From Candidatus Babeliales bacterium (lineage in GTDB: Bacteria; Babelota; Babeliae; Babelales; RVW-14): DNA of 64,000 nucleotides. Below are positions 6,508-58,043 of the stretch, one piece after another (the stretch's first letter is position 1; every line of letters begins with the position of its first letter). The translations under genes and the position numbers were made by a program. The DNA is taken from assembly GCA_041652535.1 (NCBI GenBank), contig JBAZHB010000003.1, forward strand, positions 573 through 64,572. The letters are read 5' to 3'. Under the pieces are notes generated by a model. That model made no database searches. It was given only the letters and a program-made list of their open reading frames with translations, and was not told the DNA's origin.

Positions 6508-6523
6508 ACTCCCTCTAAAAAAT

Positions 6524-18367: not shown

Positions 18368-18390
18368 TGCATCACCAAAATCAAAACTAC

Positions 18391-18411: not shown

Positions 18412-18420
18412 GACCCTACC

Positions 18421-18433
18421 AGAAAAAATAATT
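18421..18433 (-). terminator. Oligo-T tract after the rtcB operon
   Basis: Minus strand reads ATTATTTTTTCT between the rtcB stop and the next promoter. Confidence 0.3.
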
Positions 18434-18475
18434 ATCGTTCTGCATAATTGTGCATGGCATATTGCCAATGCCTTA

Positions 18476-19651: not shown

Positions 19652-20562
19652 AATTGATCCCTCAATGCGATGGCAATTGCTTCAGCGAACCTCACTGGAA
19701 CAGCATTGCCTATCATCTTATAGACGTTATCAAGCGTCGTCGATTTGAACTTGAATGAATCACGGAACGTCTGAATCCTGGCGCACTCGTGAGTCGATAG
19801 ACGGAACGCTTTAGATGGGTTGTCAAATTCCCATACGTCAGTGTCAACTTTGTGCATCGGTGATGAGTCTGGATGCAATGGTGTCTGCCTTCCACTTGCC
19901 ATGATGGTAAACGATGGCTGATTCCATGTGCGTCTGCGATTACGCGCCATATAAATTGGTGAGTAACTTCCCTTCCATCGGAGAGGATCGTCAATGTTCA
20001 CTGGTAAATCTTTAAGCGCGTCTTTGAGAACGAATGAAACTGGAATGTTATGTGGGAATGAAAACAACTGTTTGTCTTTCATCCCGACGATGATTACTCG
20101 CTTGCGGTCCTGGGGTACGCCATAGTCTGCGGCGTTTAAGAGTTTGTATGCGACGGTATATCCAAGTTTCTCAAACTGGTTGATGATGTCATTGAACGCA
20201 TCACCGTGATGCTTTGAGAGAATCCCTGCGACATTTTCTGCGACAAAGAAGCGAGGAGATTTATCTTTGAGGACACGGATATACTGATTGAATAACTGTC
20301 CTCGTTCATCTTTGATACCACGCATCTCACCAGCAGTAGACCACGACTGACACGGCGGGCCACCAATGATACCATCACTGTCAGGTATCTCATACGATGG
20401 TATGTCTTGAATCTTCGCTGTATTTAAAACGCAGCGATGATTAAGTCCATAAGTAGTTGCAACGCTACTCTCGCAATCGTTAGCGAAAGAGATAAAAAAG
20501 CCAGCATTTTCAAACCCTGTATCCAGACCACCGCATCCTGAAAATAAGGATACTAATCTCAT
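19648..20562 (-). CDS. dcm: DNA (cytosine-5) methyltransferase
   Basis: LFSGCGGLDTGF, GGPPCQSWS, ENV, QDRKRVIIVG, GNAVP. Confidence 0.9.
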   Translation of the reverse strand: MRLVSLFSGCGGLDTGFENAGFFISFANDCESSVATTYGLNHRCVLNTAKIQDIPSYEIPDSDGIIGGPPCQSWSTAGEMRGIKDERGQLFNQYIRVLKDKSPRFFVAENVAGILSKHHGDAFNDIINQFEKLGYTVAYKLLNAADYGVPQDRKRVIIVGMKDKQLFSFPHNIPVSFVLKDALKDLPVNIDDPLRWKGSYSPIYMARNRRRTWNQPSFTIMASGRQTPLHPDSSPMHKVDTDVWEFDNPSKAFRLSTHECARIQTFRDSFKFKSTTLDNVYKMIGNAVPVRFAEAIAIALRDQL

Positions 20563-23508: not shown

Positions 23509-23652
23509 TTATTCTTCCTCTAACTCCTCAATCTGTGAGAGTAGTTCTTCAACATCAACCACTTGTCGATACTGACAATCCTCTGGTCTAGCATCGAATG
23601 AATTGTTTCCAATCCATATACGTAAGGCGTTGGTCATGTCGTGTGCGCTCAT
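23509..23652 (-). CDS. Acidic mini-protein (47 aa)
   Basis: MSAHDMTNALRIWIGNNSF...EELEEE. ATGA overlap with the RNA ligase stop. Confidence 0.35.
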   Translation of the reverse strand: MSAHDMTNALRIWIGNNSFDARPEDCQYRQVVDVEELLSQIEELEEE

Positions 23653-24926
23653 GATTCTTCTTCCATATCCGACGAGCCTTCGAGTTTAATGTTGTCCTCT
23701 AGCACGTCGAACTCATAGGACTTATACTTCCATGCTTGCCACTGGTTGCAATCATTACGAATAACGACACCCTCTTTGATGTGGTGACCATCGAGAGTTG
23801 AACATCCGTTTGCATTTCCTTTACAGATTTCAACAAGTCTGTCGATGTCTCCACTAAACTCAAATGATTCGAGAATGGGAACTACATTTACACCAATCTG
23901 GTTACAACGAGTTACCATTTCTTCGGTGGTATAATCAACTTCATTACCATCCTCACCAGTGATAGACATACGATAGACATAGACTTCGTGCTGTCCTTCT
24001 TGACAACCATAGGTGAAGTTCATGTCCTTCCCGTAGCGTTTCGTCAGTTCTTTATCCTGAATCTTCTCTGTCTTACCACTCGGCATGATGAGAGAACTTC
24101 CGAGAGTGTAACCGACGATTTCATAGTAGACAGTTTCGCCTGGTTTGAGTTTACCGTCGAAGTATTTGTCATGCAGTTCTTTACGGAAGCCTTCTTTCTC
24201 CTGATAGAAACCAGTGTGTCGCTCCCAATCCTTTATTACGGTGTTGCGAGTGCCGCATACATACTTCCATGTGATTGTAGGCTTGATGAGTGTTCGTTTG
24301 CAGCAACGGTTTATTAAGGCTCCCCACCAAGTTTGCTGCGACATTAGTGCATGTGCTGAACGCTGTGATGTTCCATGAAGTTTCTCGGTTATCACAAGGT
24401 TCATGCCCTTCTCAATGTCGTCGAGTTTGTAGAGGATACGCTCTGTGTCGTGGTGCTTACGGAAGAATAAGAACTTCTCCTTCTGTGTTTCTGGTGCTGG
24501 ATTCGTGCCAGTGTATGCGTTACGTTTAACGACGTACTTCTCACAGAACGGATGCCCATGAAATGTGTTTAGTTCTTCTCCTTCGTTGAGGTCGTCGATA
24601 TTACCAGCATATTCAAGCGTCTTTAACGCTGTGAAGAAACCATTCGACTTCTGACCTCGGAGTTTCTGAACGCGCACCTTACCATTCTCGGCAAAGATAC
24701 CACCTGATTTTGTTCCATCTTCTGCAACCTTACGAACCAAGTCGTTGTATTGCAGATACTCTGGAAGCAGTCGTCCATCGGCAGGGAAGTAAAGTCCTAA
24801 CTGTCCTTCTCTTGTATCCTTACCGACGACAACTTCTTGTCCGAACACATCACCGACGACAAGATTGTCGGCTTTGGGTATAGGACGAAGGTTTTTAATC
24901 CTCGTCACATAAGCAAAGTAAGTCAT
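23649..24926 (-). CDS. ATP-dependent RNA ligase, DRB0094/Rnl5-like
   Basis: N-terminal OB-like IKNLRPIPKADNL. Motif I EKLHGTS, IV EGVVIR, V WKYKS. Confidence 0.65.
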   Translation of the reverse strand: MTYFAYVTRIKNLRPIPKADNLVVGDVFGQEVVVGKDTREGQLGLYFPADGRLLPEYLQYNDLVRKVAEDGTKSGGIFAENGKVRVQKLRGQKSNGFFTALKTLEYAGNIDDLNEGEELNTFHGHPFCEKYVVKRNAYTGTNPAPETQKEKFLFFRKHHDTERILYKLDDIEKGMNLVITEKLHGTSQRSAHALMSQQTWWGALINRCCKRTLIKPTITWKYVCGTRNTVIKDWERHTGFYQEKEGFRKELHDKYFDGKLKPGETVYYEIVGYTLGSSLIMPSGKTEKIQDKELTKRYGKDMNFTYGCQEGQHEVYVYRMSITGEDGNEVDYTTEEMVTRCNQIGVNVVPILESFEFSGDIDRLVEICKGNANGCSTLDGHHIKEGVVIRNDCNQWQAWKYKSYEFDVLEDNIKLEGSSDMEEES

Positions 24927-29339: not shown

Positions 29340-29367
29340 GGTGCCTCAAATTGTTTTGCTTTGAAAG

Positions 29368-29375
29368 TATTTAAA
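29368..29375 (-). promoter_or_regulatory. TTTAAATA box
   Basis: Lies 28 nt upstream of ATG 29339. Confidence 0.45.
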
Positions 29376-33805: not shown

Positions 33806-33999
33806 TACTTGTTCCCCCATATTTTAACGGTGATAAATGCTATCGTGATGATGATAAGTCCGAAGCCTTCTTGGATTATCCATCCCATTAACATCCCCGC
33901 TACGAAGATGTTATAAGGGTACACGAGAAACGCTGCGATGGTGAGAACGCCCTTAAGAACGACGTTCATTGCGATTTGCTGTTTGGTAATTTTCTCCAT
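33805..33999 (-). CDS. Small membrane protein (64 aa)
   Basis: Hydrophobic throughout. 1-nt overlaps with both neighbours. Confidence 0.5.
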   Translation of the reverse strand: MEKITKQQIAMNVVLKGVLTIAAFLVYPYNIFVAGMLMGWIIQEGFGLIIITIAFITVKIWGNK

Positions 34000-35438
34000 T
34001 ACAATCCCCTCTCTGCGAGGTATTTCAGAAGTTCAGGGTAATCCTGAACGGCGTATTCCTTAATCTGCGCCCATGTCATATGCTCGATGGTATCCACGTC
34101 GAACACAGAGAGGCTGTGAAATAGACGGATTAACTGTATCGAGGCGATGATAGTGTTCACGTTTAACGTGCCTTTGAAGATACGAACCTCGATAGTTTCG
34201 GAGTTGGTGAGGTTTACGCATGTGTATCTGTCGTAGCGCTTCTCTGACTTTGCCTCATCTACAACCTTATGAGTTATCGGCGTGGCTTCGGATACCTCAC
34301 ACATGCGCTTGGCGTATGCGTCGATTTCGTTCAAGACCTCGTCGTAGATGGTGAAGTCATGCTTCCGTCGTGAGAACTTGACGATTTCAGTCCAGAACTT
34401 CTCGAAGAAGTAGATGAACGAGGTTATACGTTCCTCGGTTTTGCTGTCGTAGCAATCGCCGAAGGCTCGCCTGGACATATGAACGTGTAAACCACACGTC
34501 TTTGTTTCGTGTGAACGGTATCCCGCCGCCTTTGCGAGTTCGCAGACGTGTTCGTATGGACGGTGTTCCATTATCCACTCATACGTCATTGGGTGAGAGA
34601 TAATCTCGAAGCCCTTCCATCCGAGTGAACCATCGTGGCAGCAGTAGAAATTGTCGGAGAGTTTCGACATATCGAATCGTGAAACGTCGCCCTCGTCGAT
34701 TTCCATCTCTGTTCCGAAGTAAAGCAATCCGTCGCCTTTGAAGTCGAGTTCAGGGCGGTAGCCGTATTTATGAATACCGTTCTCGTCTGGCCTACCATCG
34801 CGTCCACTTGTTTCCCAACACGACTGACAGTAGCAACCGTCGTTGTCGTCATTGTCGTCGCAGCACATATCGTCGCTGTGAACGAAGTTGCCACAGTCAT
34901 TGCACCTCGTCCAATTATGGTTGTAACAACGGGTGCAGAGGGAACTATCGTTCTCGTCGTGATACATCTCGCGGTTGTTGAAATACTCACCGCAGTCGAT
35001 ACAGACTGAATAGTTATCCTCGTAGCAACCATCGCATACGCATCCATCCTCGACGGAGTGCGCGTCGTCCATGTGGATAATTCTGTCGCACATATAACAC
35101 GAGGTATAGTCGTCGTCAAAACACTTCTGACAGATGGCTGTTCCCTCGTATATGTGGCGCTCACCGTCAATGTCGTCGGTCATGAAGTCGCCACAGTCGT
35201 TGCACATCCAGAACTCGAAGATACTCCCGTCGAATATTTCCTCATACTCGAACCATGCGAGCAGTCTGGCGATGTCCTCGTCGTAGAATACGCGAGCGTT
35301 CAATTCGCAGTCCTCACTATCGTCACGTAGATAGTGTCTGACGAAATCGCAGTCGAGCGTTCCGTCTGCTTTCCTCGTCCAGACGAGTTCATGGGTGTAT
35401 CTGCGCCCACTCTCGTCGATGTAAACCATGTCTGTCAT
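33999..35438 (-). CDS. Amidoligase_2-family carboxylate-amine ligase fused to an N-terminal multi-zinc-ribbon array
   Basis: YFGTEMEI, GFEIISHP, CGLHVHMS, IEVRIFKGTL. At least 8 CxxC pairs in the first ~230 aa. ATG 35438 (track start 35444 is TTG). Confidence 0.7.
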   Translation of the reverse strand: MTDMVYIDESGRRYTHELVWTRKADGTLDCDFVRHYLRDDSEDCELNARVFYDEDIARLLAWFEYEEIFDGSIFEFWMCNDCGDFMTDDIDGERHIYEGTAICQKCFDDDYTSCYMCDRIIHMDDAHSVEDGCVCDGCYEDNYSVCIDCGEYFNNREMYHDENDSSLCTRCYNHNWTRCNDCGNFVHSDDMCCDDNDDNDGCYCQSCWETSGRDGRPDENGIHKYGYRPELDFKGDGLLYFGTEMEIDEGDVSRFDMSKLSDNFYCCHDGSLGWKGFEIISHPMTYEWIMEHRPYEHVCELAKAAGYRSHETKTCGLHVHMSRRAFGDCYDSKTEERITSFIYFFEKFWTEIVKFSRRKHDFTIYDEVLNEIDAYAKRMCEVSEATPITHKVVDEAKSEKRYDRYTCVNLTNSETIEVRIFKGTLNVNTIIASIQLIRLFHSLSVFDVDTIEHMTWAQIKEYAVQDYPELLKYLAERGL

Positions 35439-35460
35439 GCTCAATCATACTCCTTCAAAG

Positions 35461-35468
35461 TATTTAAA
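35461..35468 (-). promoter_or_regulatory. TTTAAATA box
   Basis: Lies 22 nt upstream of ATG 35438. Confidence 0.5.
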
Positions 35469-35524
35469 CCTTATGCCCAGGCGTTCCATCGTCGGGCTAT
35501 GCGCTTCCTCGGTAATGAGCCGAT

Positions 35525-36630: not shown

Positions 36631-36651
36631 AATACTACTTCTCCTTATTAG

Positions 36652-36659
36652 TATTTAAA
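36652..36659 (-). promoter_or_regulatory. TTTAAATA box
   Basis: Lies 21 nt upstream of ATG 36630. Confidence 0.5.
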
Positions 36660-37361: not shown

Positions 37362-37622
37362 TTAACAAGTGGTTTCGCTCTGGACGAGTACAGACGTTGA
37401 CTCACCCGCGTCCATTGGGAAGCCGAGTTCTTTTGGCACGTCGTCGTACATCTCAACACCCATCTCGGTGGAGATACGGCAGATGAGAGCAATACGCTTG
37501 CCATGCGCGTCTACTGCCTCGACGGCAACGGAGTTCTTATAGGTCGATGCCTCAACGAGCCGAAGGAAGAATGGTAACTGCTGCTTCGGCGTTGCTTTAG
37601 TGAATATTCCTTTGAGTTTCAT
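37362..37622 (-). CDS. Hypothetical protein (86 aa); first gene of the leftward arm
   Basis: Internal ATG 37622 follows GAGGA. Confidence 0.45.
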   Translation of the reverse strand: MKLKGIFTKATPKQQLPFFLRLVEASTYKNSVAVEAVDAHGKRIALICRISTEMGVEMYDDVPKELGFPMDAGESTSVLVQSETTC

Positions 37623-37704
37623 GATATTACCTGTCCTCGGTGATACGAGGTAGACGAACGTGTGGATATGAACCACTTAAGACGAATACGCTATACGCGT
37701 TCGT

Positions 37705-37736
37705 TTAATATATAATATATATTACGCGCGTTCTGA
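37705..37736. repeat. Left copy of an imperfect inverted repeat (AT-rich box + CGCGCG + TTCTG)
   Basis: TTAATATATAATATATATTACGCGCGTTCTGA. Partner lies at 40739-40773. Confidence 0.6.
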
Positions 37737-37752
37737 CAACGAGGTGAAATTT

Positions 37753-37950
37753 ATGGTATGGTTTGAGGGTTGGTTGATTTTGATGCTGCTTTTTTACGTC
37801 GAACATCGACTGACACCCACCAAAATCCCAAACCTACGCATATGCAAACCCATGTGGCATAAATTGGAACGTGCAGAAGGCTTAATTTGTCGAAAGAAAC
37901 CGTTAAAAACCTTTGAATACCACCATTTCCTGTGCAAATATGCCGATTAA
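37753..37950 (+). CDS. Possible small membrane protein (65 aa)
   Basis: GAGGTGA lies 5 nt before ATG 37753. N-terminal WFEGWLILMLLFYV. It is an isolated plus-strand ORF in the control region. Confidence 0.25.
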   Translation: MVWFEGWLILMLLFYVEHRLTPTKIPNLRICKPMWHKLERAEGLICRKKPLKTFEYHHFLCKYAD

Positions 37951-38133
37951 TCTGCGTTTATTTCGCAAATCTAACCGTTTTTCACGCTTTAAATTTTTAA
38001 GCGGGTAACGTGCGTTTAATGCTCAAAATCGCGTTTATAACGGTAGAGATTTCTACACGTCGATGCAACGCCCTTTGAGTAATGCCACTCCGAGGAACGA
38101 ACCTCGTAGAATTGACGCTTCAAAAGTGGTAGT

Positions 38134-38146
38134 TTTCCAGTGGAAA
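38134..38146. promoter_or_regulatory. ORB-like dyad TTTCCAGTGGAAA (candidate Orc1/Cdc6 origin recognition box)
   Basis: Matches the TCCAGTGGAAA core of archaeal ORB elements as I recall them. The dyad loop is too short for a hairpin. Confidence 0.4.
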
Positions 38147-38149
38147 TGC

Positions 38150-38461
38150 TTAAATCTCAATCACGTCTGGTAGCCTCGAAGAAATCGTGGACTTTTTTGT
38201 TAATGCTTTTTGATTAACTACGGTTGCTTTGCACTTCTCTGCGCCTTTTAAGCGACTGACGTGATGCGCGCATACACGCTTCGGCTTTACTACGTCGATT
38301 GTGACGTTCTCATAGGCGACAGTTTCGTCTTTTAACGTGATGCTCACGACGTTTCCGAGGTTAATCGCCCTCGAATTGAAGTAAACACGACTGTTTTTCA
38401 GACGATACGCATGACACTTGTATGTATCAAAGAGGGTTTTAATGACGATATACTGCGCCAT
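38150..38461 (-). CDS. Hypothetical protein (103 aa)
   Basis: ORF track. Coupled to two upstream mini-ORFs. Confidence 0.5.
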   Translation of the reverse strand: MAQYIVIKTLFDTYKCHAYRLKNSRVYFNSRAINLGNVVSITLKDETVAYENVTIDVVKPKRVCAHHVSRLKGAEKCKATVVNQKALTKKSTISSRLPDVIEI

Positions 38462-38592
38462 TAAAGCATCCCCGTTAATACGTCGAACTTTTTCACGCTC
38501 ATGTGCGCTATCGCGCTTTTTATGCGAGCCGCTACGCTATACGCCTGGGCCTGCGTTCGTACATCGTCTTTAAGAACGTCGAAGCGCTTCAT
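38461..38592 (-). CDS. Mini-protein (43 aa)
   Basis: MKRFDVLKDDVRTQAQAYSVAARIKSAIAHMSVKKFDVLTGML. TAATG and ATGA coupling. Confidence 0.35.
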   Translation of the reverse strand: MKRFDVLKDDVRTQAQAYSVAARIKSAIAHMSVKKFDVLTGML

Positions 38593-38765
38593 ATGTGAAC
38601 CATCCAGCCACCGAAGGCATTTGTGTCGAGCATCTCGTATGGCACGAGGATTTTGTTGGCGAGTCTGACGTATTTAACGTCGTTCAGTTCGACGATTTCC
38701 ATGACGATACTGCGCTCGTGAATGTTTAACTTCACAACGTCGTATTTCTGTGGTGTGTATTCCAT
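38589..38765 (-). CDS. Mini-protein (58 aa)
   Basis: MEYTPQKYDVVKLNIHERSIVMEIVELNDVKYVRLANKILVPYEMLDTNAFGGWMVHI. GAGGT lies 7 nt before the ATG. Confidence 0.45.
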   Translation of the reverse strand: MEYTPQKYDVVKLNIHERSIVMEIVELNDVKYVRLANKILVPYEMLDTNAFGGWMVHI

Positions 38766-38782
38766 GTTCTTACCTCTGCTAC

Positions 38783-38797
38783 GCCCTTATTAAGGGC
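38783..38797 (-). promoter_or_regulatory. Palindrome GCCCTTATTAAGGGC containing a TTAATAAG box
   Basis: The AT core lies about 20 nt upstream of ATG 38765. Confidence 0.3.
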
Positions 38798-39611
38798 TAC
38801 GAGAACACGACGTTTGACCGTCGCTGTTCCCCATAGTTGCTACGGAACGCTGCGCCCTTATAACACAATGCGCTCACACGCCGTAGATAAGTGAAAGAGA
38901 TTCATCCGTCGTTGGTTACGTCGCAGTCGAGATTGGGCAACGTCGTAACCGCTGACGGCAATTTGTTTCACGTCGTTCTGTCGGCGTTGCACCCACACTA
39001 CGATGTAATGTCCAGATGTCAAGGGCGATTTCAGACGTGTTCTCCGACGACATTCACGACGGTTCATACGAGGGAACGCATCTGGCACTCTCCTCATCTT
39101 CGTCGTTGCAGTCGTCAGCACATCGTTGTCGCCGATTGAGCCGACGGTTTACAGACGAGAGCGACGAAGCCACTGAAGGCTCACGAGATACAACGAAAGG
39201 TGTCTACGTCGAAACTCTGACGGCTCACTCCGCGCTGCTATCCGTTCTCACGGTAGACGGTGTTGGGTAGTTTACCCCGTCAGTTACCTCGACGCATTTG
39301 ATGCACCGCCTTTGTTCCCGTTGATTAACGCCTTAACCCCCCTGATTGACGATACAATCGCGGCATAGATTGTGTGCCGACTGTATCCCGAAGGCTTCGA
39401 CGTTGCTCACGAGGGTGTCCGAAGATAACAAGGATGCCACCCGACGAGAACTCCGACGGCTTTCACGACGCATCTCTCGTCGCTGTCGTCTGTTCCACCG
39501 ATTGCTTCGTCATACGAGAACCTCGGATTTGGGATTCATCTCGTATCCATCGCCGTTTTAACGGCAAACCCTTCGACGGTGGTGAACCGTCTTATCCGTC
39601 GTCGGAAAGGG

Positions 39612-39767
39612 TTATGCGAGGATAAGTGCTTCCTCGGTGCAGTAGTGCAGATTCATGCTGTCGTCGGCTATTACGACGAGGGTTGGTATGCGAGGGCTGT
39701 AACCTATGACGGTAGCCATCTCGGTAGCCATGTAGATTACCCTCTGTCCTGCGACGTATGGTTCCAT
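39612..39767 (-). CDS. Mini-protein (51 aa)
   Basis: MEPYVAGQRVIYMATEMATVIGYSPRIPTLVVIADDSMNLHYCTEEALILA. AGGGTG lies before the ATG. Confidence 0.4.
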   Translation of the reverse strand: MEPYVAGQRVIYMATEMATVIGYSPRIPTLVVIADDSMNLHYCTEEALILA

Positions 39768-39770
39768 TGC

Positions 39771-39968
39771 TTACACCCTCTGTGCCATTGTGCAGCGAAC
39801 ATCTACCTTCTGTCCACGCTCATACTGCCTTACTGCGGCAGTCGTCATTAGGTTGCTCATACACTGTGCGCGTTCTGTTATCGACGTGCAGAGAACTACA
39901 CTCCGAGGGAGAACGACGTATTTGCTCTCGTTGCTGTTCGTTTTTGGGCTTGCTTCGATTTTTTGCAT
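39771..39968 (-). CDS. Hypothetical protein (65 aa)
   Basis: ORF track. A TTTAAATA box lies exactly 21 nt upstream of its ATG. Confidence 0.45.
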   Translation of the reverse strand: MQKIEASPKTNSNESKYVVLPRSVVLCTSITERAQCMSNLMTTAAVRQYERGQKVDVRCTMAQRV

Positions 39969-39989
39969 GATGGAACATCGACTCCCAAG

Positions 39990-39997
39990 TATTTAAA
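39990..39997 (-). promoter_or_regulatory. TTTAAATA box
   Basis: Lies 21 nt upstream of ATG 39968, the same spacing as at 36652 and 35461. Confidence 0.5.
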
Positions 39998-39999
39998 CC

Positions 40000-40380
40000 T
40001 TTCGCTCTGACGAGAAACACGTCGGTGACGTCTGACCTCACGAGAGAGCCATCGACCTGCCCATCGTCCTTCTTCTCCCCGAACATCGACGTGACCTCCG
40101 AGGTGTTCAGGCGTGGAGTGCCTTGCCCTCCCACGTCGTACCAGACGAGCCACACGTCAGTAGCCACCTCGACCCATCGACGTGAGCGCACCACCCCGCC
40201 CGCACCGTCGAAGAATCGAACGCGAAGGCACACGTCAGTGTCACCCCGAAGCCAACGTCAGTGTCCGAGGTGCGTCCTCTACGCGCACATCTACGCTATG
40301 CCTATGCGCATACGTCACATCTATGTGCCTACGAGTGTGTTATTACGTGCTACGAGCATACGTGTGTGTTACTTATGGGT
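40000..40380. repeat. ORF-free block of degenerate direct repeats
   Basis: GACGT(CT)GACCTC(A)CGAG at 40027 and 40088. (CAC)ACGTCAGTG at 40151, 40229 and 40254. CACATCTAyG..TGCCTAyG at 40286 and 40316. CTACGAG at 40329 and 40350. Confidence 0.55.
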
Positions 40381-40430
40381 GTTACTACCAACTATGGCGT
40401 ATGGCTTTCTCTTATTAGTAAGGTCCTGGA

Positions 40431-40467
40431 GATAAGTATATATAGTATAAGTATTAGTATATCAATC
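40431..40467. other. AT-rich AGTATA-repeat tract (candidate DNA-unwinding element)
   Basis: GATAAGTATATATAGTATAAGTATTAGTATATCAATC. Confidence 0.35.
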
Positions 40468-40480
40468 TTTCTATCCTTCT

Positions 40481-40518
40481 ATCAGACGAGAACATAGACG
40501 AACATCAGACGAGAACAT
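40481..40518. repeat. Tandem 15-nt iteron ATCAGACGAGAACAT x2 (23-bp period)
   Basis: Exact copies at 40481-40495 and 40504-40518. Confidence 0.6.
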
Positions 40519-40738
40519 CGACGTTACTTTCCTCTTGCTTATCTACCTTTGGGCATAAGTATTTATACCAGGACTTACTTACTTATGTGTATATAAGGCT
40601 TACGGCGAAAAATCAGGCCTGATAGGCGGCTTACATATAAAAGCAGCCACTTACGCAAAATTTTTCAGAAATTTCAACTCTCGTCCTCGTAGACCTATCG
40701 CATTTTAGTGATACCTTTATATACCTATCAGTGATAAT

Positions 40739-40773
40739 CAGAACGCACACGCGCGAATATATTATATATTATT
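40739..40773. repeat. Right copy of the imperfect inverted repeat
   Basis: CAGAACGCACACGCGCGAATATATTATATATTATT. Its reverse complement aligns to 37705-37736. Confidence 0.6.
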
Positions 40774-40880
40774 CAGTGTTTCCTCGATCCAATTACTAAA
40801 ATGCCTCAATTTAGTTCTCATTAGTAGTCCTTCGGACAAATTTCATGTACGGACTTTCTATCATAGTATTAACCAATCTC

Positions 40881-40888
40881 TATAAATG
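40881..40888 (+). promoter_or_regulatory. TATAAATG box upstream of the structural arm
   Basis: Lies 32 nt before ATG 40921. AAGGAA SD lies in between. Confidence 0.3.
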
Positions 40889-40920
40889 CAGAGAAAAACC
40901 TTACATATTAAGGAATTACT

Positions 40921-41292
40921 ATGACCGAATTCACATGCAAAGCCTGTATCCACGCCGGAGAACCGCACACTTTTGGCGACTCCGAAGTTGTAGAGTGCAG
41001 ATGCGCAGCAGTTACCATCAGCGGATTTCCTATCGTCAGAGCCGACTCATGGTGTACGCCGGGCAAACACGACTCGGTTGCGAACAATGGCGCTTCTGGT
41101 GAGGAAATGGTTGATGAGGGCGAAGAATCAATGCACCCTGGCGACTACATAACCATGAACAATGGCGATGGTTCCTCAACTGTGCTACACGTTCCGACGA
41201 CAATCATGAATCTGCACAGCAAAGTTAAGACGCTCGAACACGAAGTCGAACATTTAAGGAGCCGATCCCTGTGGCATCTAATAAAGCGCTGA
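40921..41292 (+). CDS. Hypothetical protein (123 aa); first gene of the rightward arm
   Basis: ORF track. Confidence 0.55.
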   Translation: MTEFTCKACIHAGEPHTFGDSEVVECRCAAVTISGFPIVRADSWCTPGKHDSVANNGASGEEMVDEGEESMHPGDYITMNNGDGSSTVLHVPTTIMNLHSKVKTLEHEVEHLRSRSLWHLIKR

Positions 41293-41887: not shown

Positions 41888-43378
41888 ATGAAGATGGCAG
41901 TAAAAACAAAAGTAGACCGAAGCGAGTATTTTTCTAAAGACGGCTATGAATACGCCTCTGTAATTCTCCGTATGCGCCAGGACCCAATCTGGTTTCTGCG
42001 AGAACACTGTGGCGTGGAGCCGTTTCCAGCACAGGAAGAAATGATTCGTGAGTTCTATCGAGCCAAATACAACCCAACTCTCCCGCCTTACCGTCATCTT
42101 GTCCTTGCACTTGGTATGCGGTCAGGTAAAACGGCGATGAGTGGGATGTTTGGAGCCATCGAACTCATGGACATATGCACTATTTCCAACCCATCGAAGC
42201 ATTATAAACTGCTGAAAGGACAGGGCATTGCGCTTCTTGCGTTAGCCACTTCACTTGACCAGGCCCTCGAAGGAGTGTTCGGCAACACAGTGAATCTCCT
42301 TGAAGGCTCCGAATTTGTGCAGACGTGGATGGATTTCAAATTTAAATCGGACACAATCGAATGTCCAGACAAGAATGTGTTCTTCAAGGCTCTCGGGTCT
42401 TGGGCAAGCACAGCAGTTGGACGTTCAGCAAAGGCGGTTTTCTTTGACGAACTTGATAACTTTGAAGATACAACATCTAAACGAGGTGCAACCGAGGTTT
42501 ACTCGCGTGTTATTAAAGCCACCGATACGCTCGGTGCCGATGGACATACCTTCGCTCTGTCCTCACTCAAATCTCCAAACGGAATAATGATGAACCTCTG
42601 TAAAGATGCAGAGGATCAGAAGCGTCGTCTTGGAAATGCTTGCAACACCCTTGCATACATCCGACCAACGTGGGAAGTGAATCCTTTCTTCAATAAAGAA
42701 ACGCTGATGAAGGAGCATGAGAACAATCTGGCAGCATTTTGGAGAGATTTCGGATGTCAGCCGTCAATCTGGAACGCACTAGCGTTTCCAAATGGTGTTG
42801 TCCTCTCGAAGATGGACAATGTGCTTCTTGCACCGCCAGCAAGTGTCATCAACCAACCCTACCGTGTAATGGCAATCGATCCTGCCGTAAAGAAAGATGC
42901 CTTCGGTATCGCTTGTGGCTATCGTCATCGTTCAGGGAAGATAATTGTTGATGGTGTGCATCGTTTCCAGAAGAAAGAGGGTAACATCATGATTATGCCG
43001 TCAGAAATTAAGGCATATCTCAATCGTGTGCTGCCAACTCTTAACGTCAAAGTGTTCCTCCATGATACTTGGATGTATTCTGACATCATAGAGGAGATAA
43101 TCCACAAAGGAATAAAGACCGAGCAGCATATAGTCAACTACGATGATTACTCTACATGGCTCGATCTTGAATCCAGTGGAAAAGTGACCGTTGTTTATGA
43201 TGATGTCCTTCGTTTAGAATGTGACAAACTCATCGTGACACCAGGACAGAAGCCAAAGATAGACCACCCATCGGCTGGTTCTAAAGATATGGCTGATTCT
43301 GTCGCAAATTGTATGAGATATATTAATGAAAACAAATTGAATACGCTCCCGAAAATGACGGGATATATGGGGTTTTAA
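41888..43378 (+). CDS. terL: Terminase large subunit
   Basis: Walker A GMRSGKT, Walker B FFDELD, C-terminal nuclease-like AIDPA. Followed by the portal gene. Confidence 0.85.
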   Translation: MKMAVKTKVDRSEYFSKDGYEYASVILRMRQDPIWFLREHCGVEPFPAQEEMIREFYRAKYNPTLPPYRHLVLALGMRSGKTAMSGMFGAIELMDICTISNPSKHYKLLKGQGIALLALATSLDQALEGVFGNTVNLLEGSEFVQTWMDFKFKSDTIECPDKNVFFKALGSWASTAVGRSAKAVFFDELDNFEDTTSKRGATEVYSRVIKATDTLGADGHTFALSSLKSPNGIMMNLCKDAEDQKRRLGNACNTLAYIRPTWEVNPFFNKETLMKEHENNLAAFWRDFGCQPSIWNALAFPNGVVLSKMDNVLLAPPASVINQPYRVMAIDPAVKKDAFGIACGYRHRSGKIIVDGVHRFQKKEGNIMIMPSEIKAYLNRVLPTLNVKVFLHDTWMYSDIIEEIIHKGIKTEQHIVNYDDYSTWLDLESSGKVTVVYDDVLRLECDKLIVTPGQKPKIDHPSAGSKDMADSVANCMRYINENKLNTLPKMTGYMGF

Positions 43379-52443: not shown

Positions 52444-54161
52444 TGGCAGCATATACAGTCACAGTCAGTTCTGTTGATTATCCTCTTGCTGAATTTGAAG
52501 CAAGTTACACAGGTACAGAACTTGATAAATGTGAATTTGTATCGGCTGCATCATTCGCATTAAACGCAGCAATCACGATTGACGCAGATGGTTCTCCTCA
52601 ATTCATCGGATACATCAAGGAGAAAGAAGAAATAGAACAGGGAGCATTGTATAAATATACTGCATACGAGGAAGCAGTCACATTAAAAACAATGCCCTAT
52701 TTAAGTAGCAGCGCTGATGTATTTATCAAATCATCAATCTCTGTATTCAATCTCGCAACAGATATAGTAACCAGCACACCAGCATCGGGTTGGACTATTG
52801 ATGGAACAATGTCCGATGCGACTGTTGTTACCATGAATTTCTACATGGTTAACCGTCTACAAGCACTTAATAAGGTGCTGCGAGAGATGAGAGGTTACTA
52901 TGTCATATTCAACTCCTTAACAAAAACAATTAAGTGGTTGAACGCAACTGGTATCAACGTAAACAGAGTCAGTGAAGGTAACATCGTTTATCAGAGTAAA
53001 ACAATTCTATCATCGTCAATGCTACGTGGTATAACCCAAGTAGTTGTGATAGGAAAGGATTCAACGATACGAGGAGAGGCTGGCTCCAGCACATCATCAA
53101 GAGTTTACTATCAGATTGACGACATAGATACCAACGCACAAGCAGCATCAATCGCTGCGCAGATACTTGCAGACGTCGGTGTTTCATATACAAAATACAA
53201 AGTAACAGTTGACCCGTCACAAACTCAATTCGACGTTCGAGATAAAGTTTTGGTTGACGGTGTTCAGTATTGGGTTCAATCACTCATTCAAGGAATGGAC
53301 GGTATTGAACTTATTATTGATGACGGACGCACTTCAGTAGTCGATTCATTCGGCTCACGTATCCATCTCATCGAGGGCGATTTCCCATCTGGTTCTGACC
53401 AACAGTGGAGCAACGCCTCACAGAATGTTTCAGGAACACAGAGCATCGTCACCAAATTCATATTCAACTGCAAGGACGCTTCCATTCTCACAGCCTTCAA
53501 TCTCAAAATAAACATCGGTAAATGGAAAGCGGGAGTAACAGATTCAACTCTTTATCTCTCTGAAGTTGATACAGTTTCATCATCAGCAGAAGATTCTAGT
53601 GAATATTCTGATGCAACTACCCACACCTTTCCCGTCACTTTAACAGCAATGACCAATGGATGGCAGCATGGGATGTATGCTTTTGAATTCTGGCCTATAA
53701 GATCATCTGCTGGCTATGTATATGTTTACATAGAATTGGCTAACAACCCATCATTCAGTGGTGCAACTACATTACGAGGAATATCATATTATATGACAGG
53801 TGATGATGGTCGTCATTTTGTCAGTGGTTTATTCTCTGGTTCGACTTCATCAGCAACATGGTATTGTCGTGCAAGAGTTTATTCATCAGCAGTTCATCGT
53901 ATATTGGGTTACAGTTTCATCGTTGATAGAAACACACGACACAAACACACACTGACCCGTGAAACATCGGAACCCGAAGTAGCACCTGCATCAGTTGAAT
54001 ACAGTTGGAATGGTGGCGCCTGGACTGAAGTTGCCAGTGATGCAGTTCTTACACCGACTGTTATAACTGGTGACAACACACTCGAAGTTCGTACTCATAC
54101 AGATAATGTTCGGAGTTCAGTAATTCCAACCGCGAACTATCAAACCTTTGGCAAGTCCTAA
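52443..54161 (+). CDS. Tail hub/tip protein (hypothetical, 572 aa)
   Basis: Call rests on position and size. Confidence 0.4.
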   Translation: MAAYTVTVSSVDYPLAEFEASYTGTELDKCEFVSAASFALNAAITIDADGSPQFIGYIKEKEEIEQGALYKYTAYEEAVTLKTMPYLSSSADVFIKSSISVFNLATDIVTSTPASGWTIDGTMSDATVVTMNFYMVNRLQALNKVLREMRGYYVIFNSLTKTIKWLNATGINVNRVSEGNIVYQSKTILSSSMLRGITQVVVIGKDSTIRGEAGSSTSSRVYYQIDDIDTNAQAASIAAQILADVGVSYTKYKVTVDPSQTQFDVRDKVLVDGVQYWVQSLIQGMDGIELIIDDGRTSVVDSFGSRIHLIEGDFPSGSDQQWSNASQNVSGTQSIVTKFIFNCKDASILTAFNLKINIGKWKAGVTDSTLYLSEVDTVSSSAEDSSEYSDATTHTFPVTLTAMTNGWQHGMYAFEFWPIRSSAGYVYVYIELANNPSFSGATTLRGISYYMTGDDGRHFVSGLFSGSTSSATWYCRARVYSSAVHRILGYSFIVDRNTRHKHTLTRETSEPEVAPASVEYSWNGGAWTEVASDAVLTPTVITGDNTLEVRTHTDNVRSSVIPTANYQTFGKS

Positions 54162-54215
54162 TAAGCCACTTGCATAGTTGCTATGAACAATTATGCAGAA
54201 ACATAATTACTTTTT

Positions 54216-54247
54216 CTAGCAGCATGTAATAAGCATCTGCTGGAACA
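54216..54247 (+). promoter_or_regulatory. CTAGCAGCATGTAATAAG + CTGCTGGAACA composite promoter/leader element
   Basis: Shares its 5' half with 48341-48358 and its 3' half with 18391-18411 (minus strand). Confidence 0.4.
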
Positions 54248-54272
54248 TACAAATTGAAGTTTGGTGATCAAG

Positions 54273-56832: not shown

Positions 56833-57159
56833 ATGACAGCAATCACAGTTAAAAATCTTGCTAATGGGCAACTCGCTGGTTCCATTGGAGATTTATATAC
56901 AGCGCCAGCAGTAACCACGACGATTATTAAATCAATCACTCTGGTTAATACTCACTCGGCAGAACTCGGTGTGAATCTCTATGTTCTCAAAGCAGGTGGA
57001 ACTGCGAGGAAGATTATTCCAAGTAACATGACATTAGGTATTGGATACCTTTTAGTCTATGACGATGTATTGACGCTCGGTGCGGGAGATAAAATTCAAG
57101 GTGACGCAGGAACAGCCGCAAAAGTGGACTACGTTATTTCAGGTGTTGAGGAAGCATGA
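56833..57159 (+). CDS. Hypothetical tail-associated protein (108 aa)
   Basis: ORF track. Confidence 0.5.
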   Translation: MTAITVKNLANGQLAGSIGDLYTAPAVTTTIIKSITLVNTHSAELGVNLYVLKAGGTARKIIPSNMTLGIGYLLVYDDVLTLGAGDKIQGDAGTAAKVDYVISGVEEA

Positions 57160-58043
57160 GAGTATATGATGCAAGCGGGAAACTTCTGCAAATCAATGTT
57201 CCCAACAAACTTGCAGAATATACCGTCATTACTTATCTTGGTACGACTGATAGTACCATCTCTACATCCAAAGCAGTTAAGGATGTTACTGACACTCTTG
57301 CTACTAAAGCCGAGATCACTGACCTGGCCCCACTCGCTGACCCAACATTTACGGGAGTACCAGCAGCACCAACGGCTGCACCTGGAACAAACACGACACA
57401 GATTGCCACGACTGCACACGTCAAAGCAGCAGATGATTTAAAAGCAAATCTCGCTTCTCCTGCATTAACAGGAACACCAACTGCTCCGACAGCAGCACCG
57501 GGTACAAATACAACGCAGATTGCGACAACTGCACATGTTAAAGCAGCAAATGATTTAAAGGCTAATCTTGCCTCGCCTGGTTTAACTGGCGTTCCAACTG
57601 CTCCGACTGCGGCTGTGGGAACTAACACCACACAACTTGCGACGACAGCATTTGTTAAAGCAGAGATAGCAGCAGGTTCAGCAGTTCCGTCGGGTCTTAT
57701 TGCGATGTGGTATTCAAGTATCGCATCGATTCCATCTGGATGGGTTCTTTGTAATGGTTCGAGTTCCACTCCTGATCTTCGTGATAAGTTCGTTGTTGGT
57801 GCTGGTTCAACATACGCCGTCGCCGATGAAGGTGGAGAAGCCACACATACATTGACCACAGCAGAAATGCCAGCGCATACTCATGGTGTTCCAAACGTCT
57901 TTGGTACTGGTACAGCGTTTGGTATTTTAGTTGGTGGAAGTCATATCGACCAGACACCAATAACTTCAGGTAGTGCTGGTTCAGGAAGCGCACATGAGAA
58001 CCGACCACCATATTATGCAATCGTATTTATGATGAAAACATAG
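57156..58043 (+). CDS. Tail fibre with tandem fibre repeats and C-terminal tail-collar domain
   Basis: WVLCNGSSSTPDLRDKFVVGAG...GGEATHTLTTAEMPAHTHG...NRPPYY is a tail-collar pattern. Confidence 0.7.
   Translation: MRVYDASGKLLQINVPNKLAEYTVITYLGTTDSTISTSKAVKDVTDTLATKAEITDLAPLADPTFTGVPAAPTAAPGTNTTQIATTAHVKAADDLKANLASPALTGTPTAPTAAPGTNTTQIATTAHVKAANDLKANLASPGLTGVPTAPTAAVGTNTTQLATTAFVKAEIAAGSAVPSGLIAMWYSSIASIPSGWVLCNGSSSTPDLRDKFVVGAGSTYAVADEGGEATHTLTTAEMPAHTHGVPNVFGTGTAFGILVGGSHIDQTPITSGSAGSGSAHENRPPYYAIVFMMKT
57342..57671 (+). repeat. 117-bp (39-aa) tandem repeat, about 2.8 copies
   Basis: P[TAG][FL]TG[VT]P[AT]APTAAPGTNTTQIATTAHVKAA[DN]DLKANLAS repeated. Copies differ mostly at synonymous positions. 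Confidence 0.8.

What the first reader, a model, noticed from the sequence alone, without database searches (positions are those of the whole stretch)
37801..40522. Several iteron families confined to the control region
Seen in sequence:
- GAACATCGAC occurs four times in the same orientation (37801, 39973, 40081, 40513). For comparison, a given 10-mer is expected about 0.003 times in 3 kb.
- ATCAGACGAGAACAT occurs twice in tandem with a 23-bp period (40481, 40504).
- (CAC)ACGTCAGTG occurs three times (40151, 40229, 40254).
- GACGT(CT)GACCTC(A)CGAG occurs twice (40027, 40088).
- CACATCTAyG..TGCCTAyG occurs twice (40286, 40316).
- GCGTTTAww..C.CAAAATC occurs twice, plus a half copy (37945, 38013, 38032).

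These repeats flank an AGTATA-rich AT tract (40431-40467).

Inference: repeated binding sites next to an unwinding element are classic origin architecture. The binding protein is unknown.
Basis: seen in the sequence. Interest (0 to 1): 0.65.

Follow-up and report, generated by a model that had tools for sequence, protein, structure and literature searches.

The report
Phage control module with hidden RNA
The repeated words are real, but they sit in a composite 3-kb module of an uncultured phage: a possible replication origin or packaging site in a repeat-rich spacer, next to a previously undescribed, abundantly expressed ~730-840-nt structured RNA.

Summary
Most are confined to the interval: GAACATCGAC occurs 4/4 times in 64 kb. 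The interval is not one control region. It is a 3.0-kb module between two divergent promoters of an uncultured PolB phage.

1. The repeats concentrate in a ~600-700-nt non-coding spacer (40,000-40,700). In eight lineages the layout is conserved: a one-strand array of short ACGT/CpG-rich words, an alternating purine-pyrimidine tract, a near-invariant AT island, a pyrimidine tract and a short tandem pair. The words themselves differ by lineage, are not phased, and the 10-mer is not conserved in position. No DnaA/IHF sites or initiator gene were found. An origin is the best single reading (~0.4). A packaging or terminal-repeat site is the main rival (~0.25).

2. 38,825-39,553 (minus strand) encodes a large structured RNA. 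57 of 181 pairs covary, and no shuffle or slid control matches this. In two metatranscriptomes it is the only sizeable RNA contig from a relative. It has no Rfam match.

3. In the source run, 37,715-40,733 has 2.3x the depth of the rest. That could mean a 3-kb terminal repeat, but a relative's runs show no such step.

The parts
37706..37739 (-). Leftward promoter-like site (TTGTCA-16 nt-TATTAT, with CAGAACGCGCG). It overlaps the TA tract 37706-37724 and is the left arm of the inverted repeat that brackets the module.
   Evidence: Consensus scan gives 10/12 matches. Inverted repeat I8. Conserved in L001, L013 and L014. The same CAGAACG..TAWTAT class occurs at 40739(+), 39877(-) and in the 100-nt element at 18370-18480 / 54160-54270.
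37715..40733 (.). 3,019-nt segment with about 2.3x k-mer depth in the source run. Possibly a collapsed direct terminal repeat; unresolved.
   Evidence: One X1 contig covers exactly this range at depth 20.1. The rest of the window is at 5.6-12.9, median about 8.7. The left end is a dead end with no branch. Contigs of another phage end at the homologous TA-tract position. Against: flat depth in X16/X17 for the L001 relative.
37801..37810 (+). Outlying GAACATCGAC copy, not conserved in relatives.
   Evidence: L013 has CTACTCATTT, L014 GTCTAACGTC and L022 GTACAACGCC at this position.
38003..38146 (.). Conserved non-coding block 3' of ORF103. It contains the adjacent GCGTTTA pair (38012, 38031), a hairpin with a compensatory change (CCGAGG..CCTCG versus TCGACG..CGTCG) and the palindrome TTTCCAGTGGAAA (38134-38146).
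   Evidence: Alignment A6. 88-90% identity to L013 without codon periodicity. Palindrome located.
38150..38765 (-). Three small genes: ORF103 (38150-38461), ORF43 (38461-38592) and ORF58 (38589-38765).
   Evidence: Third-position substitution bias against L013: [6,6,21] and [18,6,8]. ORF103 has 13 homologues with invariant C16, H17, H66, H67 and C77, and a conserved C-terminal tail with consensus SLPDVIEI. It has a confident N-terminal beta domain with only weak Sm/Hfq-like matches, E=0.84.
38825..39553 (-). Large structured non-coding RNA, about 730 nt here and 810-841 nt in L001. The ends are accurate to about +/-30 nt.
   Evidence: 83-93% identity to L013 with no codon periodicity. 181 predicted pairs, 57 with compensatory changes. 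89.8% of cells paired against 29-47% with slid partners, and 0/500 shuffles reach the observed values. Core helices are kept in 8 lineages. 104 G.U cells against 23 A.C cells fixes the strand. It is the only sizeable RNA contig in metatranscriptomes X18 and X19, at L001:6013-6853, mapped to the window. No Rfam match.
39612..39968 (-). Two small, fast-evolving ORFs (51 and 65 aa) at the start of the leftward operon.
   Evidence: ORF list. Syntenic ORFs are called in L014. Only 46-59% nucleotide identity to L013.
39973..40001 (-). Leader and promoter word of the leftward operon. AAGGTTTAAATACTT lies on the minus strand at 39987-40001. The GAACATCGAC copy at 39973 lies in the variable leader.
   Evidence: The same word lies 24-36 nt upstream of the starts of the minus-strand genes at 35444, 36630 and 29339. 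The block is 87% conserved, but the 10-mer is not.
40002..40282 (+). One-strand array of short CpG/ACGT-rich words: GAACATCGAC 40081, CATCGACG 40084 and 40175, ACGTCAGT 40154/40232/40255, GACGT..GACCTC 40027/40088. It includes the conserved block GAATCGAACGCGAAGGC at 40213-40229.
   Evidence: Direct-repeat enrichment with 0/300 shuffles in five lineages tested. Strand bias, for example ACGAG 7:0. No phasing. ACGT is 3-7x denser than elsewhere in the lineages with usable background. The words differ between lineages.
40283..40372 (.). Alternating purine-pyrimidine tract.
   Evidence: R/Y alternation is 0.80. None of 1,421 window tiles reaches it; their maximum is 0.76. It is the top tract of the whole locus in 7 of 8 lineages.
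40394..40480 (.). Conserved ATGGCGT (40394-40400), the near-invariant GTCCTGGAGATAAGTATATATAG (40423-40445), the AT island (40431-40467) and the pyrimidine tract TTTCTATCCTTCT (40468-40480).
   Evidence: Alignment A2. Also seen in L001 and L014. AT fraction about 0.8 in most lineages.
40481..40523 (+). Short tandem repeat: 12-13-nt unit, 3.4-3.6 copies, containing the 15-mer pair and a GAACATCGAC copy. A repeat pair is conserved at this position in relatives, with different sequence.
   Evidence: TRF. Relatives: L014 GAGCATCAGACGTGAGCATCGACG, L013 AACGTCGAAGCAACGTCGAAG, L007 ACGTCGAAGCCACGTCG, L001 CCAACGTCGAA twice.
40554..40686 (.). Conserved non-coding blocks: CATAAGTATTTATACC (reads as a TATAAATAC -10-like box on the minus strand), GGCGAAAAATCAGGCC, and the 51-nt block 40636-40686 holding the 26-mer AAAATTTTTCAGAAATTTCAACTCTC. 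That 26-mer is identical in the window, L001/L003 and L002, with 1-3 substitutions in L013, L007, L009 and L014.
   Evidence: 91-94% identity in blastn. Alignment A2. The exact 26-mer scan returns only L001/L003/L002 contigs. Coordinates.
40696..40772 (+). Operator-like palindromes (TATC-N10-GATA at 40696-40713, TATCAGTGATA at 40726-40736) and the rightward promoter (CAGAACGC..TATTAT, 40739-40772).
   Evidence: The roughly 35-nt piece 40704-40738 recurs in many other contexts in four runs, with summed depth about 200 in X1. Inverted repeat with 37706-37739.
40869..41292 (+). Invariant TATAAATG box and leader, then the first rightward gene (123 aa). It is followed by a 183-aa ORF and terL (41888-43378).
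   Evidence: Alignment A2. PHROG terminase hits for the 41888 ORF.

Best explanation
Shown:
- The interval is a composite 3.0-kb module between two divergent promoters of one class.
- Its left two-thirds is a leftward operon: a TTTAAATAC-type promoter at about 39,990, two small ORFs, an approximately 730-nt structured RNA, three small ORFs, and a conserved 3' block.

Inferred:
- The spacer is a DNA-level cis-acting site where the duplex is opened, most likely the phage's replication origin.
- It would be of the kind that sits in the spacer between divergent early and late modules, as in Lactococcus Ceduovirus phages. There the origin is non-coding, lies in that same position, and falls into types with no sequence similarity to each other (PMC7150918).
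- Proposed mechanism: a phage protein, not identified, loads cooperatively on the loosely defined, same-strand ACGT/CpG-rich words and on the tandem pair. Torsional stress is taken up by the alternating purine-pyrimidine tract. The invariant AT island melts. Forks then move outward, co-directionally with transcription of both arms.
- The words evolve quickly because only their density and orientation are constrained, or because they co-evolve with their binding protein.
For: - Position: the spacer lies at the strand switch and at the cumulative GC-skew minimum. It sits between divergent transcription units in all eight lineages.
- Conserved architecture despite sequence turnover:
  - Same-strand direct repeats are enriched in the five lineages tested, 0/300 shuffles.
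  - ACGT is 3-7x denser than elsewhere.
  - The R/Y tract is the most extreme of the locus in 7 of 8 lineages.
  - The AT island core GGAGATAAGTATATATAG is invariant among the window, L013, L007 and L014, and GGAGATAAGTATATATA is kept in L001.
  - A tandem pair follows the AT island at the same position in every lineage examined.
- The spacer is non-coding. Substitutions against L013 show no codon periodicity, and there are large indels.
- It is absent from the metatranscriptome contigs that do hold the neighbouring RNA.
- Precedent for such origins: PMC7150918.
Against: - No initiator, primase or helicase was recognised in the window.
- There are no DnaA or IHF consensus sites.
- The words are short, present in few copies and irregularly spaced, with no helical phasing (best p=0.10 in 8 lineages). 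This is unlike classical iterons.
- The named 10-mer is not conserved in position.
- GC skew is confounded with gene orientation.
- The depth profile of the source run shows no gradient toward the spacer, only a step.
- The site is about 1.2-1.9 kb upstream of terL (ORF start 41888), where packaging sites also lie.
- No functional data exist.
Confidence: 0.4

Rival explanations
1. Packaging or terminal-repeat site. The 3.0-kb module (37,715 to about 40,735) is a long direct terminal repeat that collapsed in assembly. The spacer's word array, AT island and conserved 51-nt block near its right edge would be terminase (TerS) recognition and processing signals just upstream of terS/terL.
For: - In the source run one contig covers exactly 37715-40733 at depth 20.1, against a window-wide 5.6-12.9. 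A two-fold depth between termini is the DTR signature (PMC5557969).
- The left edge is a dead end with no alternative branch.
- Contigs of a 79%-identical phage, from two different assemblers, end at the homologous TA-tract position. Another starts just beside the right-hand promoter.
- In X37, 6 of 7 fragments of the L013 phage lie inside the segment.
- The location is about 1.2 kb upstream of terL.
- From my own knowledge: arrays of short same-strand repeats occur at packaging sites and concatemer junctions, for example P1 pac hexamers, lambda cosB and T7 SRL/SRR.
Against: - In the DNA runs of the L001 relative, depth is flat (10.1-10.3 and 12.6) and single contigs cross both edges. Intracellular concatemers would also give a flat profile, so this is not decisive.
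- The right edge coincides with a 35-nt element shared with many other genomes, and that alone breaks the assembly graph.
- Only contigs were available, not reads, so read-start pile-ups could not be examined.
- The X37 result is not significant (p about 0.15 by fragment count).
- No physical ends fall inside the spacer itself.
Confidence: 0.25
2. Purely transcriptional control spacer. The words, palindromes and AT island would be promoters, operators and an insulator between the divergent early and late units, with no role in replication or packaging.
For: - The spacer is bounded by a promoter word shared with other minus-strand genes.
- It is also bounded by operator-like palindromes plus a promoter.
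- A TATAAATAC -10-like box on the minus strand at 40554-40569 is conserved in L013 and L014, and reads TATAAT in L007.
- The first rightward gene has a weak repressor-like PHROG hit, E=0.007.
Against: - Operators are normally palindromic and few. Here inverted repeats are not enriched in the array.
- 400 nt of degenerate one-strand words, an extreme R/Y tract and an invariant AT island are not needed for promoter control.
- No RNA from the spacer appears in the metatranscriptome contigs.
Confidence: 0.2
3. Neutral cryptic simplicity. The words would be products of replication slippage or unequal recombination in an unconstrained spacer. Only the few invariant blocks would be functional.
For: - Turnover is high and there are large indels between close relatives. 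Two overlapping 150-nt tiles (40125-40349) contain 117 gap columns against L013.
- The words are lineage-specific.
- There is no phasing.
Against: - The same biased properties recur independently across lineages: same strand, ACGT-rich, same order relative to the R/Y tract and the AT island.
- The spacer is kept at 460-970 nt in all of them.
- A repeat pair is retained at one fixed position.
Confidence: 0.1

Closest known systems
Origins of Lactococcus Ceduovirus (c2-type) phages
   Same: A non-coding region of a few hundred nt between the divergently oriented early and late gene modules. It is flanked by promoters. Its position is conserved, while its sequence falls into types with no similarity to each other (PMC7150918).
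   Different: In c2 a non-coding transcript from PE1 is implicated in initiation, and the ori supports plasmid replication without phage proteins. Here no spacer transcript was seen and no function has been tested. This spacer also has a one-strand ACGT-rich word array and an extreme R/Y tract, which are not described for c2.
Iteron origins (lambda ori, theta plasmids such as pSC101, R6K and P1 oriR)
   Same: Direct repeats in one orientation lie next to an AT-rich unwinding element.
   Different: Classical iterons are 17-22 bp long, present in 3-7 or more near-identical copies, regularly spaced, and linked to a cognate initiator gene (own knowledge). Here the words are 8-15 nt long, present in 2-4 copies and unphased. 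No initiator was recognised.
Packaging sites and concatemer junctions with short repeats (P1 pac hexamers with methylatable sites, lambda cosB, T7 SRL/SRR beside the terminal repeat)
   Same: Clusters of short, degenerate, same-strand words lie near terS/terL. A methylatable tetramer (ACGT) is clustered, and the phage encodes a C5-cytosine methyltransferase. There is a possible two-fold-depth terminal repeat.
   Different: No ends could be mapped. The relative L001 shows no depth step. The target of the methyltransferase is unknown. The comparison details come from my own knowledge and were not tested here.
Large ornate bacterial and phage RNAs (GOLLD, ROOL, OLE)
   Same: For the RNA at 38,825-39,553: several hundred nt, multi-domain with long-range helices, phage-encoded, abundant in environmental transcriptomes, function unknown (PMC12286853).
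   Different: There is no match to the Rfam models of GOLLD, ROOL or any other family, even at E<=5. It is embedded in an operon of small ORFs rather than lying near tRNAs. Its oligomeric state is unknown.

Membership tests
Iteron-type replication origin | Three or more near-identical direct repeats of about 17-22 bp with regular (helically phased) spacing | tested here: not met
   The longest family is a 15-mer present twice, and the 10-mer copies lie 2172, 108 and 432 nt apart. No significant periodicity was found in eight lineages.
Iteron-type replication origin | Adjacent AT-rich unwinding element | tested here: met
   AT island at 40431-40467. Its core GGAGATAAGTATATATAG is invariant among the window, L013, L007 and L014, and GGAGATAAGTATATATA is kept in L001.
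Iteron-type replication origin | Cognate initiator gene, usually in cis | tested here: inconclusive
   No Pfam or PHROG initiator, primase or helicase hit among the proteins scanned. Many ORFs have no annotation.
Iteron-type replication origin | Repeats conserved in position among relatives, or co-varying with the initiator | tested here: not met
   The GAACATCGAC copies are replaced by unrelated words in L013 and L007. Only the tandem pair right of the AT island is conserved in position.
Iteron-type replication origin | Supports autonomous or phage-dependent replication | not testable with these tools
   Needs a host and a cloning assay.
Transcription-primed origin in an early/late divergent spacer (c2, T4 oriF/G, T7 type) | Non-coding spacer between divergent early and late modules | tested here: met
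   precedent in PMC7150918.
Transcription-primed origin in an early/late divergent spacer (c2, T4 oriF/G, T7 type) | Promoter reading into the AT-rich element and producing a non-coding transcript | tested here: inconclusive
   A -10-like TATAAATAC box on the minus strand at 40554-40569 lies about 100 nt from the AT island. It is conserved in L013, L014 and L007 but not in L001, L002 or L009. No spacer RNA contig appears in X18/X19; absence of a contig does not prove absence of RNA.
Direct terminal repeat (DTR) of a linear phage genome | Two-fold read depth between two sharp borders | tested here: inconclusive
   2.3x in the source run X1. Weak trend in X37. Flat in X16/X17 for the L001 relative.
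Direct terminal repeat (DTR) of a linear phage genome | Read-start and read-end pile-ups at the borders | not testable with these tools
   All runs were available only as contigs.
pac/cos packaging site | Lies next to the terminase genes | tested here: met
   terL is at 41888-43378 (PHROG hits). The spacer ends about 1.2 kb upstream of it.
pac/cos packaging site | Physical DNA ends at the site | tested here: not met
   The X1 contig runs unbroken through the spacer at full depth. The only candidate ends are at the module's edges.
GOLLD / ROOL / other Rfam RNA families (for the RNA at 38825-39553) | Match to the family covariance model | tested here: not met
   No hit at gathering thresholds over the window. 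At E<=5 over 37500-41000 the only hit is a spurious miRNA match.
Structured non-coding RNA (generic) | Covarying base pairs, no coding signal, and presence as RNA | tested here: met

The most novel reading that the evidence does not exclude
The 3-kb module is a long terminal repeat whose cargo is a new class of large ornate RNA. This RNA would act together with the adjacent ACGT-rich spacer as a structural co-factor or primer for initiating replication or packaging, functionally analogous to phi29 pRNA or ColE1 RNA II. Cytosine methylation of the clustered ACGT sites would act as the switch.
Probability: 0.1. Interest if true: 0.85.

Novelty: new variant of a known kind. Interest (0 to 1): 0.6.

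Why it matters
This phage clade occurs in groundwater, landfill, wetland and sludge metagenomes, and it has no cultured relative. The closest terL match in the phage collection is only 28% identical.

The spacer is a concrete, bounded candidate for the clade's origin or packaging signal. It also shows how such sites can keep their architecture while the words turn over. Searches based on conserved iteron sequences would therefore miss them.

The more consequential result is the RNA. It is 730-840 nt long, strongly covarying and abundantly expressed, and it matches no Rfam family. That adds a phage-borne member to the very small set of large structured RNAs of unknown function (GOLLD, ROOL, OLE). 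It comes with eight sequence lineages, a defined strand and approximate ends, so structure and function studies could start directly.

Tried and rejected
- **Close phage relatives:** megablast of the region against INPHARED found nothing. terL matches cultured phages at <=28% identity only.
- **tRNAs and Rfam:** nothing found.
- **Coding potential of the conserved 38.8-39.6 kb block and of the spacer:** rejected, because substitutions show no codon periodicity and indels are not multiples of three.
- **Invertible segment flanked by the inverted repeat:** rejected. Inversion would not raise depth. The arms are only 15 nt perfect. The same motif is a promoter class found elsewhere in the window.
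- **Helical phasing of the words:** not found.
- **One shared word family across lineages (for example CGA[CG]GTGA):** present 9 times in L001, 2 times in the window, and none on that strand in L009 and L002.
- **DnaA and IHF boxes:** none.
- **Host clue from the genome collection:** the single hit, in a Devosia MAG, is a chance match.
- **Wider distribution of the RNA or the 26-mer in IMG/VR:** only the same three contigs.
- **Thermodynamic z-score to choose the RNA strand:** uninformative, -2.1 against -5.0. G.U counts settled the strand instead.
- **Fold of ORF103:** no significant structural neighbour.
- **Depth step in other phages:** flat for L001 and underpowered for L013.
- **Archaeal BRE/TATA reading of CGAAAGGTTTAAATAC:** considered, then dropped. 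Genes carry GAGG-type ribosome-binding sites, and sigma-70-like promoters are present.

Full report
**Context**

The window is almost the whole of a 65,257-nt metagenomic contig of an uncultured tailed phage.
- Genes on the minus strand run from about 38.8 kb down to 0.1 kb. They include family-B DNA polymerase, ribonucleotide reductase, ATP-dependent DNA ligase, RtcB, RNA ligase, a CCA-adding-type nucleotidyltransferase, a C5-cytosine methyltransferase, a PD-(D/E)XK nuclease, an amidoligase and a thymidylate-synthase-like protein.
- Genes on the plus strand start at 40,921. They include the large terminase at 41,888-43,378 and portal- and tail-sized ORFs.
- GC and AT skew switch at 40-41 kb.
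- There is no close relative in the phage collection. terL is at most 28% identical to any deposited phage.
- Eight related lineages were recovered from viral, metagenome and assembly collections: L001/L003/L008, L002, L007, L009/L010, L013, L014-L018, L019-L021 and L022.
- They are syntenic across the interval.

**The observation**

All word families are at the stated coordinates.
- GAACATCGAC occurs four times in 64 kb, always on the + strand and always inside the interval. With one mismatch allowed, 7 of 17 copies are inside (p=7e-6).
- The 15-mer pair is unique to the interval. It is part of a 12-13-nt tandem array of 3.4-3.6 copies.
- The ACGTCAGT and GCGTTTAWW families are enriched.
- CACATCTAYG is not enriched (p=0.09).
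- Taken as a whole, the spacer 40,000-40,603 is strongly enriched in same-strand direct repeats at k=7-10. None of 300 dinucleotide shuffles reaches the observed values, and inverted repeats are not enriched.

**What the interval contains**

It is not a uniform control region.

*(a) Bracketing promoters*
- Two divergent promoter-like sites bracket it, at 37,706-37,739 (minus strand) and 40,739-40,772 (plus strand). They form the inverted repeat seen.
- They share a CAGAACG...TAWTAT pattern. This pattern recurs at 39,877 and in a 100-nt element present once on each arm. So the inverted repeat is two promoters of one class, not a recombination site.

*(b) Leftward operon*
- From a promoter word AAGGTTTAAATACTT (39,987-40,001, minus strand) a leftward operon runs through ORF65, ORF51, a roughly 730-nt non-coding stretch, ORF58, ORF43 and ORF103. 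The same word precedes three other minus-strand genes.
- The ORFs show third-position substitution bias against the closest relative, L013.
- The stretches 38,775-39,230 and 39,450-39,600 are more conserved than the ORFs (83-93% identity) and show no codon periodicity.

*(c) Spacer*
- The remaining 600-700 nt (40,000-40,700) is a non-coding spacer.

**The structured RNA**

- An alignment of five lineages in minus-strand sense gives a consensus fold of 181 pairs. 57 of them carry compensatory double changes.
- The control count gives 89.8% of cells paired, against 29-47% when partners are slid by 1-3 columns. It gives 57 double-change pairs against 8-18. None of 500 shuffles reaches any observed measure.
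- The fold includes long-range helices. One example is a 27-pair helix joining columns 242-272 to 705-751 of the nine-sequence alignment. It survives in all eight lineages, including the distant L019/L021.
- G.U cells outnumber A.C cells 104 to 23, so the RNA is read from the window's minus strand. Folding energies alone could not decide the strand.
- In two independent activated-sludge metatranscriptomes, the only sizeable contig from the L001 relative is an 810-nt or 841-nt piece covering L001:6035-6844 and 6013-6853, at depth 7-10. The neighbouring ORFs and the spacer are absent or at trace level.
- Mapped through the alignment, this corresponds to window positions about 39,553 to 38,825.
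- No Rfam family matches, even at E<=5. Degenerate-pattern scans find the RNA only in this clade.
- It is therefore a discrete, abundant, conserved structured RNA of a class not yet described. Its nearest analogues in kind are GOLLD and ROOL (PMC12286853).
- ORF103, downstream in the same operon, is the best-conserved protein of the module. It has an invariant C-H...H-H...C pattern and a conserved C-terminal tail with consensus SLPDVIEI. Its N-terminal beta domain has only non-significant Sm/Hfq-like neighbours. This is a lead, not a finding.

**The spacer**

- At 39,973 the relatives read GAACATGGGC and TAGTCATCGGC.
- At 40,513 they read CAACGTCGAAG and CCACGTCGTAT.
- At 37,801 they carry unrelated words.

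What is conserved is an architecture.
1. An array of short words, all on the same strand, around a loose C-N-N-C-G-R-N-G theme. Examples are CATCGACG, CCTCGGAGC, CCGAAGCC, CAGACGAG and ACGTCGAAG. The dominant word differs by lineage.
2. ACGT is clustered at 9-22 per kb, against 2-6 per kb elsewhere in each locus with usable background.
3. An alternating purine-pyrimidine tract is the most extreme of the whole locus in 7 of 8 lineages. In the window it is 0.80 alternating at 40,283-40,372, and none of 1,421 tiles reaches that.
4. Conserved blocks: CGAGTGTGTTATTACGTGCT.CGAGC, ATGGCGT and GTCC.GGAGATAAGTATATATAG, the last being the core of the AT island.
5. A pyrimidine tract follows, and then a short tandem pair at the same position in every lineage examined.
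6. A highly conserved block lies at 40,636-40,686 (91-94% identity). Its 26-mer is identical in the window, L001/L003 and L002 and differs by 1-3 bases in the other lineages.
7. Operator-like palindromes come last, before the rightward promoter.

Other properties:
- The words show no long-range phasing.
- There are no DnaA or IHF consensus sites.
- No initiator gene was recognised.

**The depth step**

- In the source run X1, the assembly graph yields one 3,019-nt contig covering exactly 37,715-40,733 at k-mer depth 20.1.
- Every other contig of the window lies between 5.6 and 12.9, with a median of about 8.7.
- The right edge coincides with a roughly 35-nt operator/promoter piece that recurs in many other genomes in four runs, with summed depth about 200. 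That alone explains the break there.
- The left edge is a dead end with no alternative branch, inside the TA tract.
- Contigs of the 79%-identical L014 phage, made by two different assemblers, end at the homologous position.
- Two-fold depth between sharp borders is the signature of a direct terminal repeat collapsed by assembly (PMC5557969).
- Against this, the DNA runs of the L001 relative show flat depth, and single contigs cross both edges. That could reflect intracellular concatemers, or it could mean there is no repeat.
- A third phage, L013 in X37, gives only a weak trend.
- With contigs only, the question stays open.

**Interpretation**

I commit to the spacer being a DNA-level cis site at which the duplex is opened, most likely the origin (about 0.4).
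- It lies where the two arms and the skew diverge.
- It keeps a melting-prone core, the R/Y tract plus the AT island, flanked by one-strand word arrays.
- It matches the documented case of Ceduovirus origins: non-coding, located between divergent early and late modules, and diverse in sequence (PMC7150918).

Which steps are shown and which are inferred:
- Shown: the repeat statistics, the conservation pattern and the absence of coding signal.
- Inferred: protein binding to the words, melting at the AT island, and bidirectional forks.

Rivals:
- The main rival (about 0.25) is a packaging or terminal-repeat function. It is supported by the depth step and by proximity to the terminase genes.
- A purely transcriptional role is given about 0.2.
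- Neutral slippage is given about 0.1.

The broader idea, repeats next to an unwinding element in a control spacer, is partly supported.

**Verdict**

Novelty: a new variant of known kinds (an origin-like spacer, and a large ornate RNA). Interest: 0.6.

Noticed in passing
window 38825-39553 (minus strand); L001:6013-6853: Large structured RNA of about 730-840 nt. It shows strong covariation and is the only sizeable RNA contig from a relative in two metatranscriptomes. It has no Rfam match.
   Followed up: yes
window 37715-40733: One contig of the source run covers exactly this range at 2.3x the depth of the rest of the window. Contigs of another phage end at the homologous left edge. It may be a collapsed 3-kb terminal repeat, but a relative's runs show flat depth.
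   Followed up: partly
window 40704-40738: A roughly 35-nt piece (GTGATACCTTTATATACCTATCAGTGATAAT, with the tetO-like palindrome TATCAGTGATA) occurs in many other sequence contexts in four metagenome runs, at about 20x the phage's own depth. In some contexts it is directly followed by CTTTAAATAC..TATTAACC. It looks like an operator/promoter cassette shared by a wider, more abundant phage group.
   Followed up: partly
window 35455-35469, 36651-36659, 29367-29375, 39987-40001 (minus strand); variant at 40554-40569: The recurrent word (G)GTTTAAATACTT lies 24-36 nt upstream of the starts of minus-strand genes. It is probably a -10-type promoter class of the early arm.
   Followed up: partly
window 40869-40923: An invariant TATAAATG box, similar to the T4 late-promoter consensus TATAAATA, plus a fully conserved leader in front of the first rightward gene. 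L013 lacks the roughly 190 nt between the conserved 51-nt block and this box.
   Followed up: no
window 18370-18480 and 54160-54270: A roughly 100-nt intergenic element, 86% identical, is present once on each arm in the same orientation relative to local transcription. It contains CAGAACG followed by an AT-rich box and is probably a further promoter or regulatory cassette.
   Followed up: partly
window 38783-38797; also L001 about 4630-4650 and 5010-5035: The hairpin GCCCTTATTAAGGGC lies immediately upstream of the ribosome-binding site of ORF58. Similar hairpins precede other early genes in relatives.
   Followed up: no
window 38003-38146: Conserved non-coding block 3' of ORF103, with a covarying hairpin and the palindrome TTTCCAGTGGAAA. 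The palindrome is present once or twice in every relative. Low-depth RNA fragments map near the equivalent region in L001 (5194-5351).
   Followed up: partly
window 13700-14404, 18476-19651, 23649-24926 (minus strand): An RNA-repair suite: a CCA-adding-type nucleotidyltransferase, RtcB and an RNA ligase. It suggests defence against host tRNA-cleaving systems.
   Followed up: no
window 19648-20562, 8256-9035, 33999-35444 (minus strand): A C5-cytosine DNA methyltransferase, a thymidylate-synthase-like protein and an amidoligase. These may indicate DNA modification. The methyltransferase may relate to the ACGT clustering in the spacer.
   Followed up: no
window 57333-57663: A 117-nt tandem repeat (2.4 copies, 77% identical) inside a plus-strand ORF in the tail region (57156-58043).
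   Followed up: no
window 38150-38461 (minus strand): ORF103 family (13 homologues) has invariant C16, H17, H66, H67 and C77, and a conserved C-terminal tail (consensus SLPDVIEI; LPDVIEI in the window). The model shows a small beta domain with only weak Sm/Hfq-like similarity (E=0.84).
   Followed up: partly
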